Made by a program: the position numbers and the translations under genes. The notes beneath the pieces were generated by a model. It had not been told where the DNA came from. It did no database searches and saw nothing but the letters and a program-made list of their open reading frames with translations. 15,619 bases of DNA, from positions 1 to 15,619 of the IMG/VR virus record IMGVR_UViG_3300035099_000022; one strand, written 5' to 3'. Below, piece by piece: positions 2 to 11,829 of the stretch. The stretch is from a virus (Duplodnaviria > Heunggongvirae > Uroviricota > Caudoviricetes). How positions within the stretch are numbered: the first letter of the stretch is position 1; every line of letters starts with the position of its first letter.

Positions 2-1924
2 GTAAGCATAGCCGCTGTCCCAAGCTCCGCGCCAGACTAAGCCGGGATCGCCTTGCGGTCCTTGCTCGCCTTGCGGTCCTTGCTCGCCTTGCGGTCCTTG
101 CTCGCCTTGCGGTCCTTGCTCGCCTTGTGGTCCTTGCTCGCCTTGCGGCCCCTGTGGCCCTTGCTCGCCTTGCGGTCCTTGCTCGCCTTGCGGTCCTTGC
201 GCGCCTTGCGGCCCCTGTGGCCCTTGCGGCCCCTGTGGCCCTTGCTCGCCTTGCGGTCCTTGCTCGCCTTGCGGTCCTTGCGCGCCTTTGGCAGCCAACA
301 CATTCCAGTAACTCGCGTTGGGCGGTTGCTGATTGGTGTTGGCTTGAATGCAGACGTAAGATGAGCCATTGCATTCAACAGCGTCATCTACGACGTAAGC
401 ATAGCCGCTGTCCCAAGCTCCGCGCCAGACTAAGCCGGGATCACCCTTGTCGCCCTTGTCGCCCTTGTCGCCCTTGTCACCTTTGTCACCTTTTGCACCT
501 GGACTTCCACTGCCACCACCACCACCCGCGCCAGTTTTACCAGGTTCACCTTTTGCAGCCAACACGTCCCAGTTTGTATTGCTTGTTGCTGTTGCAGGCG
601 GTCGTGCGATATTTGTCGGCTTGATACAAACAAAGGCGCTGCCCTTGTAGTGGACTGCATCGTCGGTGCTATAGGAAACACCAGGTTGCCACGCCCCTCG
701 CCATGTTAGACCCTGCTTGCCTTGCGGCCCCTGCGGCCCCTGCAGCCCCTGCGGCCCCTGTTGGCCTTCCCGTCCTTCCGGCCCCTGTGGGCCTTCCGGC
801 CCCTGTGGGCCTTCCGGCCCCTGTGGGCCTTCCGGCCCCTGTGGGCCTTCCGGTCCCTGCGGTCCCTGCGATCCCTGCGGGCCTTCCGGCCCCTGCGGGC
901 CTTGTGGGCCTTCCGGCCCCTGTGGGCCTTGTGGGCCTTCCGGCCCCTGTGGTCCCTGTGGGCCTTCCGGCCCTTGTGGGCCTTCCGGCCCCTGTGGTCC
1001 CTGTGGTCCCTGTGGGCCTTCCGGCCCTTGTGGGCCTTCCGGCCCTTGTGGGCCTTCTGGCCCCTGTGGTCCCTGTGGGCCTGGCTGTCCATCTATGCCA
1101 TCGCGACCGGGTTTTCCTTCCAGCCCCTGCGGGCCTTCCGGCCCCTGTGGGCCTTCTGGCCCCTGCGGGCCTTCCGGCCCCTGCGGGCCTTCCGGCCCCT
1201 GCGGGCCTTCCGGCCCCTGCGGGCCTTCCGGCCCCTGCGGGCCTTCTGGCCCCTGCGGGCCTTCCGGCCCCTGTGGGCCTTGTGGGCCTTCCGGCCCCTG
1301 TGGGCCTTGTGGGCCTTCCGGCCCCTGTGGGCCTTGTGGGCCTTCCGGCCCTTGTGGCCCCTGTGGGCCTTCTGGCCCCTGTGGGCCTTCCGGCCCCTGT
1401 GGGCCTTGCGGACCTTCCGGCCCCTGTGGGCCTTGCGGACCTTCCGGCCCTGGTTGTCCATCTACGCCGTTGCGACCAGGTTTTCCTTCCGGTCCTTCTG
1501 GCCCTTGTGGGCCTTGTGGGCCTTCCGGCCCTTCCGGCCCTTGCGGCCCTTGCGGCCCTGGTTGTCCATTCATGCCATCATGACCAGGTTTTCCTTCTGG
1601 CCCTTGCGGCCCTTGCGGCCCTTGCGGCCCTTGCGGCCCTTGCGGCCCTTGCGGCCCTTGCGGCCCTTGCGGCCCTTGCGGCCCTTCTGGCCCTTGCGGC
1701 CCTTGCGGCCCTTGCGGGCCTTCGGGTCCAAATTGGTCTACAAGTTCCCTGACTCGATCATCAATTTGGCAAACGAACGTGTGGAGTTTTAGAACGCCAT
1801 TTTCCACGGCCACAATTTCTTGTGCCATAAACTGCAAATCAGCCGGCGTTGGTGCGTCAATAATGCCAGACTCCCAAGTCGAGGGCCAAATGCCATTCCA
1901 TACTTGTTCAGGAAAGTGTGCCAT
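2..1924 (-). CDS. Collagen-like (G-X-Y) repeat protein with CBM5/12 (ChtBD3)-like modules; probable fibre/adhesin; 3' partial, at least 641 aa
   Basis: Manual translation from ATG 1924 (SD GAGGAGG upstream): [20 protein letters not shown]...DQF, then long GPQ/GPE triplets. Modules read [26 protein letters not shown]...WDVLAAKG and [26 protein letters not shown]...YWNVLAAKG; a third begins at the left edge. No stop seen in the segments translated. Missing from the ORF track because its stop lies outside the window. Confidence 0.9.
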
Positions 1925-6312: not shown

Positions 6313-7454
6313 AGTTCGCCCTCGTCTTTTGCGCCGTGGCGGTTTAAGTAATCTGCTGCGACTGATTTCAAGATCAGTCGGCCGAAGCAACATTGTTGTT
6401 CGACAAGGGGCGTAATTACAATTCCCTCACGGCCCTTGAATCTTGACTTGACTTTATCGGCTACTGTCGTCGGGCCGCACGTTAGTTGATCTACTAATTC
6501 CGGATGAAATGGGCCTTTGTAAAGCAATGGAACCGTTGGTACGTTATAGCGGTCGCAAAAACTTTTGAGCAGCGACCAGTCTTGGTAGGAACCGTTGATG
6601 CTGAGGTCGAAGCATCGCCAGCCGACTTCACCTGCAGGAATCCCGTAGTCTAAATCCTGGATGCCGGGGCCAAATAACTCGCCAAAAAGAATCACGTCGT
6701 CAGTCCGTTCGCCTCGATCACGGTTGCAGAGATCGGTGAGCAAGCCAAGTACACCTGCAAGCCGCGCAGGGTACCAGTAGATGGATTCTTGCCCTTCGGG
6801 CTCGAACCTCTTGCGAGCTGTTTTGTTGGAGCCGGCATAAAATAACCACTTGCCATCGACTTTCAACCAGCCTATGCGCGAGCATGTTCCGTGAATTTTC
6901 TCGGTTATTCTTACAGGCGTTCCTGGCTCTAGCAAGTGTCGGTATTTGCGGTAGTGCTGAATGTCGGTGTAGTGGTGGAAGTTGACTGGCTCCTGGACGA
7001 ATCCGCCCCAAACCGTGCCGCGGTTGATTCGTGCCGGCGGTTCATACTTGATGCCACGGAATTGTTCCGTTACGTCCACACCTGTCACGTCCACACCTGT
7101 TACGCCCCTACCTGTTACGTCCCCGCCCGGTGCCACCGACTTGCTCAGCACTGAGAGCGGTTGAACGAACCCATAGCTGGGCACGCCTCGCAGCCGGCAG
7201 GCTGCCACGCGACATGGTATCCGTTGGTTGTTGTAGGGGGCGGTCTTAAGGTACTTCTGGATACCTAGGGTTTCTGATACGTTGCTGGGGAGGCAGATGT
7301 CCGGTGGGAAATAGATGCATAAGTCACCGACCTTGAATTGACCCTTGACGATTAGCGTCTGTGTGCCGGCTACCTTAGCGATCTCCAGGTGATCTGCGTC
7401 AGGATGTGGCTCGATGGCTTCGATGCGTTCAACAGTGATGTTGACTTCACTCAT
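6309..7454 (-). CDS. ATP-dependent RNA ligase, DRB0094/Rnl5 family
   Basis: N-terminal IEPHPDADHLEIAKV...GQFKVGDLCIYFPPD, KYEPP, motif I TEKIHGT, FGELFGPGIQ, FD, VPLLYKG, REGIVI, LKSV. Confidence 0.9.
   Translation of the reverse strand: MSEVNITVERIEAIEPHPDADHLEIAKVAGTQTLIVKGQFKVGDLCIYFPPDICLPSNVSETLGIQKYLKTAPYNNQRIPCRVAACRLRGVPSYGFVQPLSVLSKSVAPGGDVTGRGVTGVDVTGVDVTEQFRGIKYEPPARINRGTVWGGFVQEPVNFHHYTDIQHYRKYRHLLEPGTPVRITEKIHGTCSRIGWLKVDGKWLFYAGSNKTARKRFEPEGQESIYWYPARLAGVLGLLTDLCNRDRGERTDDVILFGELFGPGIQDLDYGIPAGEVGWRCFDLSINGSYQDWSLLKSFCDRYNVPTVPLLYKGPFHPELVDQLTCGPTTVADKVKSRFKGREGIVITPLVEQQCCFGRLILKSVAADYLNRHGAKDEGEL
7065..7124. repeat. In-frame 15-nt repeat x4 (x-D-V-T-G) inside the RNA ligase
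   Basis: Encodes GDVTG RGVTG VDVTG VDVTE. Confidence 0.85.
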
Positions 7455-7496
7455 GCCTTTTACCCACGCTTTTCACTCACGCTTTTCACTCACGCC
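7446..7496. repeat. 13-nt tandem repeat x4 including the RNA ligase start codon
   Basis: Minus strand reads GGCGTGAGTGAAA AGCGTGAGTGAAA AGCGTGGGTAAA AGGCATGAGTGAA; the last copy carries the ATG. Confidence 0.85.
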
Positions 7497-7688: not shown

Positions 7689-7744
7689 TCCTGCGTGAGT
7701 TTCCTGCGTGAGTTTCCTGCGTGAGTTTCCTGCGTGAGTTTCCT
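7689..7744. repeat. 13-nt tandem repeat x4 (TCCTGCGTGAGTT) from a stop codon to the next RBS
   Basis: Minus strand reads TAG GAAACTCACGCAG x3 GAAACTCACGCAGGAG ACCCAAC ATG. Confidence 0.95.
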
Positions 7745-8309
7745 AGGTCTTGGATTTCCGTTTGCGACTCTTCGGGGTCGCATTTTCTATCTTATTGAGC
7801 AACGGGATTACTGAATCGATTTCCCCTGTCAGAACATGTGTGAAGGGAATATGCCATTCGTACAAGCAGGTGACGATGAAGTCATCCATTTCAAGGGCTT
7901 GATTCAGGTCTTCATACCGACCAGCCTGTTCATAGACGACAAACGGCGACCGAGCTACGTAGAAGTTGATCGAGGGATAGCTCCCCTCGAATCGTTTGGC
8001 AATGCGCCAAAGTTCATTTGCGGCTTTTTGCTTGTGTCGCAGGGCATACATGCATTGCAAATAGATTGGGCTGTCGGTCACGATCCATTTCACACCAGCC
8101 TGTAAGAGTCGGTCTTCCAGATGCAATTGGCTGGCAAACGTGTAAACGTAGTCAAATGACTTGATCTCCCGGCTTAAGTAGGCCCAATTCTTGACCCATT
8201 CTTGAACCAACTCGGCTGAATGGCCGTGTTGACGCAACCAACTATAAGTCATAGCGGCCAGTGTGGACTTACCGACACCAGGGCCCCCATAGAAATTTAC
8301 TCGCATCAT
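7743..8309 (-). CDS. P-loop NTPase/kinase, NadR-type (AAA_28-like)
   Basis: Walker A GGPGVGKST near the N-terminus and Walker B-like WIVTDSP. Confidence 0.8.
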   Translation of the reverse strand: MMRVNFYGGPGVGKSTLAAMTYSWLRQHGHSAELVQEWVKNWAYLSREIKSFDYVYTFASQLHLEDRLLQAGVKWIVTDSPIYLQCMYALRHKQKAANELWRIAKRFEGSYPSINFYVARSPFVVYEQAGRYEDLNQALEMDDFIVTCLYEWHIPFTHVLTGEIDSVIPLLNKIENATPKSRKRKSKT

Positions 8310-9028
8310 TCTCCTTTCATCCGCTTGATAGTCTGGTGGTAGTAAGATTCGCAGTTTAAACAGAGCCGACAGTATGCGCCCTCCAGACTGCCGCAGTGCG
8401 AGATGAGTCGATTACCCTTGTATTGGGCCAGCACATAGCGAATGAATGATGCCGTAGGACACCAATAAGAATTGATATGTCGCACGCGCCACTCGTAGCA
8501 CGGGCCGCCCACGGCTGCCAAGACTTCGGCCGGCGGTTTTGGCTCAGCCTCATAGTAGGCCAGGAAGGTCAGAACTACTGGAATCTGCTTTTCAGTGAAC
8601 CATTCGGCAGCCAATTTGACGTTGTTGAGATTGGTACTGGATACCCGTAGTCGAATGAACATGAGGTTATCAGGCACCCCGTTTTGTAGGGCTGGCGGGA
8701 TGCGCACAGGTTGCTCTTCGGCTGGGTTAGCGGTCCAGACGACGGGGCCCGGAAAATCGAAGCGGGGAATTGCTGTGTTGAAGAAGACACGTTTAAACTG
8801 CTTGGCGGTTTCAATCACCAGGTCACGCTGATTGTTGCTATCGTTCCCACAGTTCATGCGAACAATGCCGTTGCCAACTTCCTCGGGTGTCGGGACACTT
8901 GGCACTTCAGTGTAGAAGGCACCTGGTCGATTGAAAAAACATTGATTGCAACCCACGGGGCACAATCCCGCCTGTGGGATGCAATCATACAAGTTGCTGC
9001 CATCTTGTTTCGGATTGCGCTTTGTCAC
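8306..9028 (-). CDS. Radical-SAM-motif protein (CxxxCxxC)
   Basis: CPVGCNQCFF near the N-terminus and an extra Cys cluster CRLCLNC near the C-terminus. ATGA overlaps on both sides. Confidence 0.65.
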   Translation of the reverse strand: MTKRNPKQDGSNLYDCIPQAGLCPVGCNQCFFNRPGAFYTEVPSVPTPEEVGNGIVRMNCGNDSNNQRDLVIETAKQFKRVFFNTAIPRFDFPGPVVWTANPAEEQPVRIPPALQNGVPDNLMFIRLRVSSTNLNNVKLAAEWFTEKQIPVVLTFLAYYEAEPKPPAEVLAAVGGPCYEWRVRHINSYWCPTASFIRYVLAQYKGNRLISHCGSLEGAYCRLCLNCESYYHQTIKRMKGE

Positions 9029-9288
9029 GAGTCATCCTTTTCCAACAAGATATCTTGGGCCTCCTCAAAAAGGTAGTCTTTCGTCAAATTGCCAACAACT
9101 TGGATCAGGAAACCAGCCCAGTAGATGATGCGCGGTCGATCGTCTTTCAATTTGGCGGCTTCCAGCTCATCCAGAGCGTACAAGACACGCTTGCCTTTCT
9201 TCGTGTAGTCGTCGGGGTTGAGATTCAATTCGGCTACAACAAAAGAGTTTTTGTCGTCTGCCAACTGATGCAAGGATTCTTTATTCAT
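9025..9288 (-). CDS. Hypothetical protein (87 aa)
   Basis: MNKESLHQLADDKNSF... The ATG at 9288 follows pentamer array C; the ORF-track start at 9327 lies within the repeat. Confidence 0.7.
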   Translation of the reverse strand: MNKESLHQLADDKNSFVVAELNLNPDDYTKKGKRVLYALDELEAAKLKDDRPRIIYWAGFLIQVVGNLTKDYLFEEAQDILLEKDDS

Positions 9289-9435
9289 GTTGTCGTCTCG
9301 CCCTTGCCTCGCCTTTGCCTCGCCCATTTGCCTCGCCTATTTGCCTTGCCTTGCCTTGCCTTGCCTTGCCACGCCTAGCCCGGCCTCGCCGTGCCCAGCC
9401 GCGCCCAGCTATGCCTGGCCGTGCCACGCCACGTT
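9289..9435 (-). repeat. (GGC-NN)n pentamer array C; candidate VIPR-type guide RNA
   Basis: Starts at the phosphoesterase stop: AAC-GT, then NN = GT AC CA AT TG GC TG AC GA CG TA GT (one AGC variant unit), GGCAA x6 (9341-9370), then degenerate GGCGA/GGCAA units up to the next ATG. Confidence 0.9.
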
Positions 9436-10237
9436 AAATCACCAATGCAGTTGCCTTTTGTGATTTCAACTTCGCCATCACTGGCTCGAAGCGTGTCACC
9501 TCGCCACGGTGGGTCTCGAAGACAATGAATCCAAAATCAACTAACCCCTCACACCTGCGCGATCCGAACCGCGTTCCCATTGCTTGCAGCGCCGGTGTCG
9601 TTAGTTGTAGGCGCGGCTCGATAGTGTCCATCGCAGCGTTGAAATAGTGGACGTGCGAACGAACTAGGACGTTGGCTCGCGGTGCATAGTCCCGGTCAGC
9701 CCAGAGAATATTCCAAAGGGCCGCCTTCTTTAGTCCTGTGCCCCGTGTTGTGGGAACCTGTGAGCCACTGATGAAGTGTTTAAAATCGAACATGACGCCG
9801 CCGATTTCGACCCACTCATGTGCGCCGATTTTCTCAGCCTTTAATTCCTTAGCGATGTCGTTTTCCCACTCTTCCTGGTCGCCTGTGTGGTAGGCCGTGC
9901 CGTAGGTCATCACTAACTTTGGATTGCCCACAAGTGCCTGCCGGATGGCATAGCACGCCATGTCAACTTGTTCTTGGCGGTTGGTGGTAATTTGTTCGCA
10001 CCCACCGGAACGATCGCCGCGACCGTCAATGGCGTCGCCGTTGATGACCACCAAGTCATACGGGCCGTTGGCCACCACATTTTTGATGTACCACTGCCAC
10101 GCCTCTCGCTGGATTAAAGCGAATTTCACCCGCTTCGTGCGGCCGTTTGATTCGGATGAATCAGTCTGCCATGCGGGCGGCGTCAAGCCGACTAAGTGGC
10201 CACAATGTAGGTCCGCCAATACAAGGGTTCGCTTCAT
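9434..10237 (-). CDS. Calcineurin-like metallophosphoesterase
   Basis: LADLHCG, INGDAIDG, FKH and SHVH motifs. GTAYH sits at the usual GNH position. Confidence 0.85.
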   Translation of the reverse strand: MKRTLVLADLHCGHLVGLTPPAWQTDSSESNGRTKRVKFALIQREAWQWYIKNVVANGPYDLVVINGDAIDGRGDRSGGCEQITTNRQEQVDMACYAIRQALVGNPKLVMTYGTAYHTGDQEEWENDIAKELKAEKIGAHEWVEIGGVMFDFKHFISGSQVPTTRGTGLKKAALWNILWADRDYAPRANVLVRSHVHYFNAAMDTIEPRLQLTTPALQAMGTRFGSRRCEGLVDFGFIVFETHRGEVTRFEPVMAKLKSQKATALVI

Positions 10238-10430
10238 TGTTATGTCTTATCTTGTTTTGCCCTTGTCTTGTCTTGTTTTGTCTTGTCTTGTTTTGTCTTG
10301 CCTTGCCTTGCCTTGCCTTGCCTTGCCTTGCCTTGCCTTGCCTTGCCTTGCCTTGCCCCGCCACGCCGTGCCTCGCCAAGCCGGGCCCTGCCTAGCCCAG
10401 CCACGCCGAGCCGCGCTGTGTCGTGTCGCA
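10238..10430 (-). repeat. (GGC-NN)n pentamer array B; candidate VIPR-type guide RNA
   Basis: Begins a few nt after the RAMP-gene stop: GAC-AC GAC-AC AGC-GC, then NN = TC GT TG TA AG CC TT GA AC GT GG, GGCAA x12 (10298-10357), then GACAA/AACAA units up to ATG 10237. Confidence 0.9.
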
Positions 10431-10433
10431 AAA

Positions 10434-11015
10434 TTACGCTTTCTCCCAGCTTGTGACTTGAAATTTTCCGTAGACACCGCGGAATGTTCCTAGTCCAATA
10501 GCTACGCCAGACTTCACAAGGAGATTCTGCACTGTTTCTTCTTTCACCTCGTCATTTTCAAACAAGGTTAACGTGAACCGCAGTTCCCAGGGTAAAGGCA
10601 GTACAGGCCGCACCTTGGGATTCGGAATGCCGTTCCTCAACCGGGCCACGGCCCGATGAATGTAGCAACCTGATTTAGGATCACGTTCTTGAGCATCGAA
10701 ACCACTGAAAACGATGGGTTGGCCCTCACGGAGAAAGGGAATCTCCATCGGGTCGACGCTCACAAAGCTGCAAAGAGCTGCAGCCATTCGTTTGTATTTA
10801 CGGGAGTCGAGGAATCGTTTCGGAGCGCTTGGTGTGTTTTGTGCCGATAACAGAGAAAGGATGTTGGCAGACGGCAGGTAAATTGTGTTGTCGCTCTGCA
10901 GGTAAAGTTTTTGGTCTGGTCTCAGTTCCGTTCGATTGTCGCCTGCATAGCGATCGAACATGATATCGCTGATTCCAGTCAGCGTAATTTTGCGCAAAAT
11001 GTCGGTTGTTTTCAT
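10434..11015 (-). CDS. vipr: Cas7/RAMP-like protein, candidate Vipr effector (193 aa)
   Basis: RAMP-like pattern: N-terminal strand ITLTGISDIMF, IYLPSANILSLL (cf. Cas7 'IPGSSLKG'), RPVLPLPWELRFTL, and C-terminal Gly-rich loop GVAIGLGTFRGVYGKFQV. SD AAGGAG precedes ATG 11015. Flanked by GGC-NN arrays. The symbol is assigned from locus architecture and my recollection of the literature, not from a search. Confidence 0.75.
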   Translation of the reverse strand: MKTTDILRKITLTGISDIMFDRYAGDNRTELRPDQKLYLQSDNTIYLPSANILSLLSAQNTPSAPKRFLDSRKYKRMAAALCSFVSVDPMEIPFLREGQPIVFSGFDAQERDPKSGCYIHRAVARLRNGIPNPKVRPVLPLPWELRFTLTLFENDEVKEETVQNLLVKSGVAIGLGTFRGVYGKFQVTSWEKA

Positions 11016-11100
11016 CTGCAATCTCCTTTAGGTCTTGTACGAAGTCATCTGGGTCAGGGACGGGAATTTCGTCACGTGTCGTGAGACGAAAGATAGAAAC

Positions 11101-11160
11101 GGTGCGTGTCATTTAGGTGCGTGTTATTTAGATACGTGTTATTTAGATGCGTGTCATTTA
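11101..11160. repeat. 15-nt tandem repeat x4 (TAAATRACACGYAYC on the minus strand) between array A and the RAMP gene
   Basis: TAAATGACACGCATC TAAATAACACGTATC TAAATAACACGCACC TAAATGACACGCACC. Confidence 0.9.
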
Positions 11161-11165
11161 GAAGC

Positions 11166-11260
11166 TTGCCTTGCCTTGCCTTGCCCTGCCGCGCCCGGCC
11201 ATGCCCCGCCCAGCCATGCCCCGCCTTGCCCCGCCCAGCCTAGCCCAGCCCAGCCGCGAC
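11166..11260 (-). repeat. (GGC-NN)n pentamer array A; candidate VIPR-type guide RNA
   Basis: GTC-GC, then 18 perfect GGC units with NN = TG TG TA TG GG AA GG AT TG GG AT CG GC AG AA AA AA AA. Confidence 0.9.
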
Positions 11261-11280
11261 GATTTGTTACACTGGTTCGT

Positions 11281-11472
11281 TTATCCTCGTCCTCGGGTCT
11301 TGCGCGGGTGTCCATCTTCGTATTTGTTGTGGCCTTTGGGCGGTTTTATAAGTACGCGATGTACTTTCGTGGCGCCGCACTTCGCACAACGGGTGGGTTG
11401 CTTGGCGTCCATTGCCTGAAACTCTTCACTCTTATTGCCACACACACTGCATTCAAGGTCGTAGAGTGGCAT
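11281..11472 (-). CDS. FmdB-family Zn-ribbon protein (63 aa)
   Basis: MPLYDLECSVCGNKSEEFQAM....RCAKCG....RV. SD AAGGA precedes ATG 11472. Confidence 0.8.
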   Translation of the reverse strand: MPLYDLECSVCGNKSEEFQAMDAKQPTRCAKCGATKVHRVLIKPPKGHNKYEDGHPRKTRGRG

Positions 11473-11698
11473 CAGATAGTCCTTTCGGCGTGGTTTGCGG
11501 ACGTTCAACTACTACCACATTGTAAAGGTTCCTAAGAGTCACACGCCTACCGACAGGGTTGTAGCCAACGATGTTGGCTTCACTCACTTGGCTGACATTT
11601 AATTGCGCCAAGCCCATCATTGAACCGCGCCGCCACGAGTACACAACGAGGTCGCCAGGACGAATGGTGCGACCCAAATAGTCAACAGGAGTGTTCAT
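11453..11698 (-). CDS. Small hypothetical phage protein (beta-rich, possibly SH3/KOW-like)
   Basis: DYLGRTIRPGDLVVY pattern; fits the gene spacing. Confidence 0.65.
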   Translation of the reverse strand: MNTPVDYLGRTIRPGDLVVYSWRRGSMMGLAQLNVSQVSEANIVGYNPVGRRVTLRNLYNVVVVERPQTTPKGLSDATLRP

Positions 11699-11829
11699 AC
11701 GCGCTCTTCGATTGGAAGGGATTGGAAAACAACCGGTGGTTCCTTCTTCTGTTTTGGCAACGGTGTCGCTCTAAATACCACTTCGTAAACGGGGAACCAA
11801 TTTGGCGTCCTATAAAGTTCAGAATGTGA

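What the first reader, a model, noticed from the sequence alone, without database searches (positions are those of the whole stretch)
9289..9435. Array C guide string, separated from the effector by a whole gene
The NN run is GT AC CA AT TG GC TG AC GA CG TA GT, then AA x6. It begins on the phosphoesterase stop codon, about 1 kb from the effector gene, and ends in degenerate GGCGA/GGCAA units at the next ATG. All three arrays share the same polarity (GAC/AAC/GTC-type lead-in, variable core, AA tail). No promoter or terminator is obvious, which suggests guides are cut from the polycistronic mRNA and dispersed through intergenic spaces. More may exist elsewhere in the genome.
Basis: partly seen in the sequence, partly recalled or inferred. 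Interest (0 to 1): 0.7.

Follow-up and report, generated by a model that had tools for sequence, protein, structure and literature searches.

The report
Third guide RNA of phage VIPR
This five-base repeat tract is the third guide-RNA gene of a VIPR system, a CRISPR-like, RNA-guided DNA-silencing system of phages first described in 2026; it is a real further example whose target was not found, and its relatives seem to read their guides without the one-base gaps reported for the model system.

Summary
On the - strand, 9432..9371 holds 13 variable dinucleotides separated by GGC (one AGC). Six GGCAA units follow (9370..9341), then degenerate GGCGA/GGCAA units run to the ATG at 9288.

It is a vrRNA of a VIPR system (bioRxiv 10.64898/2026.04.26.720920).
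- The 193-aa gene at 10434..11015 (-) folds as a Cas7-like RAMP and matches SUSP1 Vipr in the thumb and G-loop.
- Among 80 viral loci with homologues, 78 carry such arrays, 186 on the vipr strand and 7 opposite.
- In a 96%-identical relative, GGC is kept at 44/45 positions and NN at only 10/30, beside a flank with 287/300 identity.
- The order array-vipr-array-phosphoesterase-array recurs in relatives.

No further array exists in the 81.8-kb genome. No target of array C was found under either rule.

New lead: four independent guides of this Vipr clade match rival loci contiguously (0-nt skip: 25/26, 31/36, 18/18, 20/20), three of them inside rival vipr genes. The 1-nt skip rule gave only background.

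Processing from a polycistronic mRNA is plausible but untested. Earlier follow-ups on arrays A and B of this locus reached the same VIPR reading.

The parts
9371..9432 (-). Guide region of vrRNA C: 13 variable NN (GT GT AC CA AT TG GC TG AC GA CG TA GT) separated by GGC (one AGC)
   Evidence: Sequence; array calls. In relative L081 the same tract keeps GGC at 44/45 positions but NN at only 10/30.
9341..9370 (-). Constant 3' tail, six GGCAA units
   Evidence: AA or GA units end most arrays of the clade. They lie outside the guide-target matches seen in relatives. Copy number differs between close relatives (array B: 12 here, 4 in L081).
9289..9340 (-). Degenerate tail: four GGCGA-GGCAA pairs with 1-3 nt phase breaks, running to the next start codon; no Shine-Dalgarno motif
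   Evidence: Tandem Repeats Finder period 13 at 9304-9351; no stable hairpin or pseudoknot in the fold.
9434..10237 (-). 267-aa calcineurin-like metallophosphoesterase, candidate VIPR accessory gene, bracketed by arrays B and C
   Evidence: Pfam PF00149 below cutoff (E 0.005). AF2 model pLDDT 84.8. Fold matches to Vps29, LpxH, Rv0805, GpdQ, Mre11 and PolD DP1. Commonest real neighbour of vipr, 21 of 180 loci.
10238..10414 (-). vrRNA B: 12 variable NN (from unit 0), GGCAA x12, then a GACAA/AACAA decay to the phosphoesterase ATG
10434..11015 (-). vipr: 193-aa Cas7-like RAMP protein with the G-loop GLGTFRGVYGKF
11166..11257 (-). vrRNA A: 15 variable NN (from unit 0), then GGCAA x4
9025..9288 (-). 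87-aa ORF of unknown function that starts where the tail of array C ends
   Evidence: no Pfam, PHROG or PADLOC hit; not found beside vipr in other loci.

Best explanation
Array C is the gene for a VIPR guide RNA (vrRNA), the third of a phage-borne VIPR locus ordered vrRNA A, vipr, vrRNA B, metallophosphoesterase, vrRNA C, all on the - strand.

By analogy with SUSP1 VIPR, Vipr protomers bind one per pentamer. They sequester each GGC and expose the 13 NN dinucleotides, which together specify a double-stranded DNA target in a competing mobile element that is then silenced. The (GGCAA)n run and the degenerate GGCGA/GGCAA units form the constant 3' tail.

Shown here:
- the anatomy of the array;
- the RAMP fold of the protein and its G-loop/thumb homology to a solved Vipr;
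- the strand-specific association of arrays with vipr across about 180 loci;
- fixed GGC against randomised NN between near-identical phages;
- the conserved position of an array right after the phosphoesterase stop codon;
- the absence of self-targets.

Inferred:
- expression of the array, and its release from the operon transcript;
- binding by Vipr, and silencing of a target;
- that this clade pairs its NN string with a contiguous target (0-nt skip), not the 1-nt-gapped target of type II. I put this at about 0.65. It rests on four independent guides of relatives, not on array C itself.
For: Literature:
- VIPR is defined as a Vipr RAMP plus vrRNAs of 9-16 YNNGG repeats with a 3' tail.
- The vrRNAs lie in intergenic DNA up- and downstream of vipr and its accessory gene.
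- The systems are phage-borne and do not target their own genome.

Protein:
- Profile hit to SUSP1 Vipr over the thumb and G-loop (E 1.4e-3). The RNA-contact residues R138, W178 and R179 align with R136, F178 and R179.

Arrays:
- 47 matches against 0 expected.
- 186 arrays on the vipr strand against 7 opposite, in 78 of 80 loci.
- Information content is 1.75/1.83/1.51 bits at G, G and Y, against 0.14/0.06 at the two N.

Close relative L081 (Vipr 96% identical): flank 287/300 identical, GGC 44/45, NN 10/30. The same holds for arrays A and B.

Architecture: an array starts 2-16 nt after the phosphoesterase stop in L001, L002, L064, L081 and L083, as here.

Self-targeting: none under any skip rule.

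Contiguous code in the clade: hits with segment score of at least 17 number 22 at skip 0, against 0, 0 and 3 at skips 1, 2 and 3. Hits of at least 20 number 11 against 0, 0 and 0. Reversed, shuffled and swapped controls give 0-1. Each guide-bearing phage's own vipr carries 4-13 mismatches at the same site.
Against: - No target of array C was found under the 1-nt skip rule or the contiguous rule.
- No transcript data exist.
- Sequence similarity to the one solved Vipr is weak and limited to about 50 residues. D177 of SUSP1 Vipr, which contacts G1, is T here.
- No pseudoknot-like tail is predicted.
- The total of 19 or more GGC units exceeds the 9-16 repeats given for type II if tail units are counted.
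- The VIPR type (I-VII) could not be assigned, because the papers' figures and data tables are not readable here.
Confidence: 0.9

Rival explanations
1. A functionless decaying microsatellite: a (GGCAA)n tract expanded by replication slippage, with older copies mutated at random.
For: The GGCAA copy number varies between close relatives (array B: 12 here, 4 in L081). The 3' ends decay into GACAA/AACAA or GGCGA units.
Against: Random decay would hit all five positions alike. Here GGC keeps 1.5-1.8 bits and NN 0.06-0.14 bits over 186 arrays. Between 96%-identical phages GGC is 44/45 identical and NN 10/30. The arrays track one protein family and its strand.
Confidence: 0.02
2. Chiefly a 5' leader of the next gene: a G/A-rich, weakly structured untranslated region that recruits ribosomes to an ATG lacking a Shine-Dalgarno motif, possibly regulated by Vipr binding.
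For: The tails of arrays B and C run to the ATG of the next gene without a Shine-Dalgarno motif. The tail is A-rich and predicted to be weakly paired.
Against: This does not explain the hypervariable NN in a fixed GGC frame. Array A is separated from the vipr start by about 150 nt, and vipr has its own AAGGAG site. In relatives arrays also follow the last gene of the module. It could be a secondary role of the tail only.
Confidence: 0.04
3. A retired or decoy vrRNA: a true VIPR array that is no longer used for targeting, or that serves to titrate a rival's Vipr.
For: No target was found. Solo and decoy vrRNAs are described for satellites and SUSP1-family phages.
Against: Only one of 13 units departs from GGC (AGC). 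The orthologous array in L081 keeps the GGC scaffold with a different NN set, which points to ongoing selection. The searchable collections are a small sample of the source environment.
Confidence: 0.04
4. Double-stranded DNA iterons bound by a protein (replication, packaging or operator sites).
For: The phage carries many other short intergenic tandem repeats.
Against: The strand bias of 186:7 relative to vipr argues for a transcript. The 5-bp period with free NN matches the solved Vipr-RNA contacts.
Confidence: 0.01

Closest known systems
Type II VIPR of Escherichia phage SUSP1 and the Pseudomonas fulva prophage (bioRxiv 10.64898/2026.04.26.720920 and .720927; PDB 36pp)
   Same: - A small RAMP protein of about 20 kDa with a thumb and a G-loop.
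- Guide RNAs built of GGY/NN pentamers with hypervariable NN and a constant 3' part.
- vrRNAs both upstream of vipr and downstream of an accessory gene.
- Phage-borne, with no self-targets.
   Different: - The Vipr is only remotely similar (21.6 bits, C-terminal 50 residues).
- The tail is a run of GGCAA or GGCGA repeat-like units rather than a roughly 40-nt pseudoknot.
- One vrRNA sits in each intergenic gap, instead of a downstream array of three.
- The neighbour is a metallophosphoesterase, not the DNA-binding vap1.
- In relatives the NN string matches targets contiguously, not with a 1-nt skip.
Class 1 CRISPR-Cas backbone subunits (Cas7 family: Csm3, Cmr4, Csf2, type VII Cas7)
   Different: The window has no CRISPR repeat-spacer array and no cas genes. 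The period is 5 nt with 2 read bases, instead of 6 nt with 5 read bases. The system sits on a phage.
Solo vrRNAs of SUSP1-family phages that are predicted to target relatives' VIPR systems (bioRxiv 10.64898/2026.10.15.759431)
   Same: Guides of this clade (L156, L111, L015/L017) match conserved sites inside rival vipr genes, while the bearer's own vipr is mismatched.
   Different: Here the guide-bearing phages still carry vipr. The matches are ungapped. Array C of the window shows no such match.

Membership tests
VIPR system (Vipr + vrRNA) | Homology to an experimentally validated Vipr | tested here: inconclusive
   Family profile against PDB 36pp_D (SUSP1 Vipr): E 1.4e-3, 21.6 bits, residues 142-194 only. 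R138, W178 and R179 of SUSP1 align with R, F and R; D177 aligns with T. The fold libraries used predate or lack 36pp.
VIPR system (Vipr + vrRNA) | At least 4 (typically 9-16) tandem YNNGG repeats in intergenic DNA beside vipr, on its strand | tested here: met
   13 variable units plus 6 GGCAA units in array C. 186 arrays on the vipr strand against 7 opposite in relatives.
VIPR system (Vipr + vrRNA) | GGY conserved while NN is hypervariable among related loci | tested here: met
   Information 1.75/1.83/1.51 bits against 0.14/0.06 bits. Against L081: GGC 44/45, NN 10/30, flank 287/300.
VIPR system (Vipr + vrRNA) | Constant 3' tail after the variable repeats | tested here: met
   GGCAA or GGCGA units end most arrays of the clade and lie outside the guide-target matches.
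VIPR system (Vipr + vrRNA) | vrRNA expressed as a discrete small RNA and bound by Vipr | not testable with these tools
   No transcript or binding data are available.
VIPR system (Vipr + vrRNA) | No self-targeting of the source genome | tested here: met
   The best own-genome match of guide C is 16/24 at 1-nt skip and 17/26 contiguous, both at the level of shuffled guides.
VIPR system (Vipr + vrRNA) | Recurrent accessory (vap) gene beside vipr | tested here: inconclusive
   The metallophosphoesterase lies next to vipr in 21 of 180 loci, on either side, usually bracketed by arrays. Whether it equals one of the published vap1-6 cannot be read, as the figures and data are not held.
Type II VIPR (SUSP1 / P. 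fulva clade) | Target read with a 1-nt skip (xNN) | tested here: not met
   This was tested on the clade, not on array C. With 513 arrays against 1.24 Mb of related loci, the 1-nt skip gives 0 hits of score at least 17 and the contiguous reading gives 22. Array C itself has no target under either rule.
Type II VIPR (SUSP1 / P. fulva clade) | 3' tail of about 40 nt forming a pseudoknot | tested here: not met
   The tail consists of GGCAA/GGCGA units. The minimum-free-energy fold shows only scattered 2-bp GC contacts there. There is no Rfam match in the window or in 20 related loci.
CRISPR-Cas | Repeat-spacer array (repeats of about 24-48 nt) with cas genes | tested here: not met
   Tandem Repeats Finder and the repeat scans show no such array in the window. 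Pfam, PHROGs and PADLOC show no Cas families in the neighbours.

The most novel reading that the evidence does not exclude
The large Vipr clade to which this phage belongs decodes its guides differently from the published type II systems. The NN dinucleotides, starting with the pair that precedes the first GG, pair with a contiguous stretch of target DNA (0-nt skip), with GGC looped out of the guide only. Guides of this clade are often aimed at conserved sites inside rival phages' own vipr genes. Array C would then recognise an ungapped 26-bp site.
Probability: 0.6. Interest if true: 0.75.

Novelty: new variant of a known kind. Interest (0 to 1): 0.5.

Why it matters
VIPR is a months-old discovery: a minimal RNA-guided DNA binder proposed as an ancestor of CRISPR effectors. 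Its decoding rule has been established for one type only.

This locus adds an uncultured 82-kb phage with three dispersed guides, a repeat-like GGCAA tail and a metallophosphoesterase embedded between guides.

If the contiguous reading seen in its relatives holds, the 'gapped code' is a property of one VIPR type and not of the family. That would bear on how the thumb and helical bundle set the register, on target prediction for thousands of metagenomic vrRNAs, and on the use of these proteins as tools. It would also extend to a second clade the idea that phages aim VIPR guides at each other's vipr genes.

Tried and rejected
Target of guide C, 1-nt skip rule:
- Own genome: best 16/24, equal to shuffled guides.
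- 160 related loci: best 17/24, at the null level. A 15/16 partial hit in L063 and L067 fell to 17/26 on extension.
- IMG/VR exact scans of units 1-12, 4-12 and 1-9: 0 hits.
- Guide B in IMG/VR: 0 hits.
- Up to 3 mismatches in 5 genomes carrying vipr and in 401 Planctomycetota genomes: 0 hits.

Target of guide C, contiguous rule:
- Own genome: best 17/26, tied at five sites. One of them is the 5' end of the downstream ORF (9248..9273), which is not above chance.
- IMG/VR 16-mer seeds gave 19 and 23 loci, the number expected by chance, and the best extension was 21/26.
- Cultured phages by blastn: E of at least 2.

Other searches:
- Rfam gave no match in the window (E up to 1) or in 20 related loci, so there are no hammerhead-interspersed arrays.
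- DNA similarity of 8300..11700 to cultured phages: none.
- The single-protein scan of viral contigs found nothing; an alignment was needed.
- A vipr-only target database gave no excess of weaker hits beyond the four or five strong ones.
- A perfect 1-nt-skip hit came from a low-complexity CA/CC tract on the opposite strand and was discarded.
- ORFs that read through arrays (ARQGKARQG-like) are artefacts of stop-free G-rich sequence.

Limits:
- The VIPR type could not be assigned, because no supplementary files or figures are held.

Full report
**1. What is there**

The window is the first 15.6 kb of a single-contig virus record of 81,827 bases. Nearly all genes lie on the - strand.

Read on that strand, the 267-aa phosphoesterase gene ends with TAA at 9436..9434. 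Then come C, the dinucleotide GT, and twelve pentamers GGC-NN (one is AGC-TG) at 9430..9371. Six GGCAA units follow at 9370..9341. Four GGCGA-GGCAA pairs, broken by 1-3 nt, then run to the ATG at 9288.

A six-unit GGCNN pattern occurs 47 times in the window (up to 1 mismatch), always on the - strand within three arrays, against none in 200 shuffles. The whole genome has only these three arrays:
- array A at 11257..11166, upstream of a 193-aa gene;
- array B at 10414..10298, between that gene and the phosphoesterase;
- array C.

**2. What it is**

A profile of the 193-aa protein family hits one solved protein, 'SUSP1 Vipr protein' (PDB 36pp; E 1.4e-3). That led to three 2026 preprints on VIPR systems.

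In these systems a small phage RAMP protein, Vipr, polymerises on vrRNAs made of 9-16 YNNGG repeats. It hides each GGY and exposes the hypervariable NN, which specify a double-stranded DNA target that is silenced. A constant 3' tail follows the repeats. The vrRNAs lie in intergenic DNA up- and downstream of vipr and its accessory gene.

Each testable part of that definition holds here.
- **RNA contacts.** In the HMMER alignment, SUSP1's RNA-contact residues R138, W178 and R179 align with R136, F178 and R179. D177 aligns with T177.
- **Distribution.** The family is large: 1,734 proteins at E up to 1e-3, and 289 clusters at 50% identity. It occurs in viral contigs and in (pro)phage regions of Planctomycetota, Lysobacterales, Methylococcaceae, Paraburkholderia, Desulfovibrio and others. 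One cultured phage, Burkholderia phage vB_E436, also carries it.

**3. Comparative evidence that the arrays are guides**

In 80 viral loci with a homologue, 78 carry GGYNN arrays on the vipr strand, 186 arrays against 7 on the opposite strand. Most lie within 300 nt of the gene. Information content is 1.75, 1.83 and 1.51 bits at G, G and Y, but 0.14 and 0.06 bits at the two N.

The sharpest test is the metagenome contig L081, whose Vipr is 96% identical.
- The 300 nt upstream of array C are 287/300 identical.
- The GGC positions of the array are 44/45 identical.
- The NN positions are 10/30 identical, about random.
- Arrays A and B behave the same way in L082 and L081.

This is the pattern of a fixed scaffold carrying exchangeable specificity. 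It excludes a passively decaying microsatellite.

**4. The point of the finding: a guide beyond a whole gene**

The phosphoesterase is the commonest real neighbour of this Vipr clade (21 of 180 loci) and lies on either side of vipr. Wherever it lies downstream (L001, L002, L064, L081, L083 and the window), an array begins 2-16 nt after its stop codon. When it lies upstream, an array usually separates it from vipr.

So array C is a conserved member of the module, not a stray, and the phosphoesterase is embedded among guides. Its model (pLDDT 84.8) has the generic calcineurin-like fold shared by Vps29, LpxH, Rv0805, GpdQ, Mre11 and the PolD exonuclease. The substrate cannot be inferred. It is a candidate accessory protein, either a nuclease or an RNA-end processing enzyme, at about even odds.

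**5. Tail**

In the clade, the last two or three units are AA (52-54%) or GA (21%). In every guide-target pair found in relatives, these units lie outside the match. Their number changes between close relatives: array B has 12 here and 4 in L081.

They are therefore a constant 3' part, unlike the pseudoknot tail of type II. No stable structure is predicted there. No Rfam family, hammerhead included, matches the window or 20 related loci.

**6. Biogenesis**

No sigma-70-like promoter or intrinsic terminator is predicted on the - strand of 8900..11800. The first guide dinucleotide sits 2 nt after a stop codon, and all arrays share the gene strand.

Release from the operon transcript is therefore the simplest reading. 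It is an inference only: the host's promoter type is unknown, and a promoter could lie inside the phosphoesterase ORF.

**7. Target**

Under the published 1-nt skip rule, guide C has no match above chance:
- in its own genome (16/24);
- in 160 related loci;
- in IMG/VR by exact scans of 9-12 units;
- in 406 bacterial genomes with up to 3 mismatches.

**8. An unexpected result on the code**

I took all 513 GG-phased arrays from the 180 loci and this genome. I compared them with the same 1.24 Mb, arrays masked, under 0-3 skipped bases.
- The contiguous reading gave 22 hits of segment score at least 17, and 11 of at least 20.
- The 1-nt and 2-nt rules gave none.
- The 3-nt rule gave 3, which are residual array-to-array homology.
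- Reversed, shuffled or N4/N5-swapped guides gave 0-1.

Four independent guides account for the signal.

| Guide locus | Match in rival loci | Site | Bearer's own site |
|---|---|---|---|
| L156 | 25/26 | antisense strand of vipr in L155, L170 (a Paraburkholderia prophage) and L052 | 21/26 |
| L111 | 31/36 | sense strand, at the FDRYAGDN-coding site | 23/36 |
| L015/L017 | 18/18 | antisense strand, at the DIMFDR-coding site | 14/18 |
| L057/L155 | 20/20 | 255 nt upstream of vipr in L052 | no equivalent site (best 12/20, elsewhere in the locus) |

Matches start with the NN that precedes the first GG and stop before the AA/GA tail. Both DNA strands are hit, as expected for DNA targeting.

In this clade the NN string thus appears to pair with a contiguous target. 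The three preprints considered that architecture but rejected it for SUSP1, and their text reports no other rule. I could not read their figures or data tables.

Read this way, guide C is a 26-mer. It too has no target:
- own genome, 17/26 at five tied sites;
- IMG/VR 16-mer seeds at chance numbers, with the best extension 21/26;
- cultured phages, E of at least 2.

**9. Verdict**

The system itself is known since April 2026. Earlier follow-ups on arrays A and B of this locus reached the same reading.

What sets this clade apart from the characterised type II is the repeat-like tail, the embedded phosphoesterase and, as a strong lead, an ungapped target code with frequent aiming at rival vipr genes. 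I rate the finding as a variant of a known kind, of moderate interest. The contiguous-code lead is the part worth testing.

Noticed in passing
L156:1683-1757, L111:1201-1290, L015:4900-4964, L057:4818-4877 (targets in L155, L170, L052, L124, L160, L012): Guides of related phages match rival loci contiguously (25/26, 31/36, 18/18, 20/20), three of them at conserved sites inside rival vipr genes and one 255 nt upstream of vipr. For the three vipr-directed guides, the bearer's own vipr is mismatched at the same site. The published 1-nt skip rule gives nothing in the same data.
   Followed up: yes
window 11103-11162 (- strand): Four tandem copies of a 15-nt unit (TCTAAATGACACGCA-like) lie between the tail of array A and the vipr ribosome-binding site. 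The close relatives L081 and L082 have four to five copies. This could be an operator or a processing signal.
   Followed up: partly
window 7446-7495 and 7689-7744 (- strand): Two 13-nt tandem arrays with mutually complementary cores (ACTCACGC and GCGTGAGT; 21-nt arms, 76% complementary) flank a 58-codon hydrophobic ORF between the AAA-kinase-like and RNA ligase genes. The mRNA ends could pair with each other.
   Followed up: partly
window 9434-10237 (- strand): The metallophosphoesterase has DxH, GD and HxH motifs but GTxYH in place of the usual GNH. It is the commonest neighbour of this Vipr clade and is usually bracketed by guide arrays.
   Followed up: partly
window 2-1924 (- strand): A long collagen-like (Gly-X-Y) repeat gene with 9/18/27-nt periodicity and 65-70% GC stands out from the 52-54% GC of the rest of the window.
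   Followed up: no
L179:2860-2945 (Burkholderia phage vB_E436, PQ789831.1): A cultured phage carries a 52%-identical Vipr homologue annotated as a hypothetical protein. A single GG-phased array (GGC or GGA units, GGCGA tail) lies just upstream. This gives an experimentally tractable member of the clade.
   Followed up: partly
L051, L053 and L054 arrays downstream of vipr: Near-identical arrays differ by insertion of repeated three-unit blocks (GT TG GA). Guides therefore also change by unit duplication, not only by substitution.
   Followed up: no
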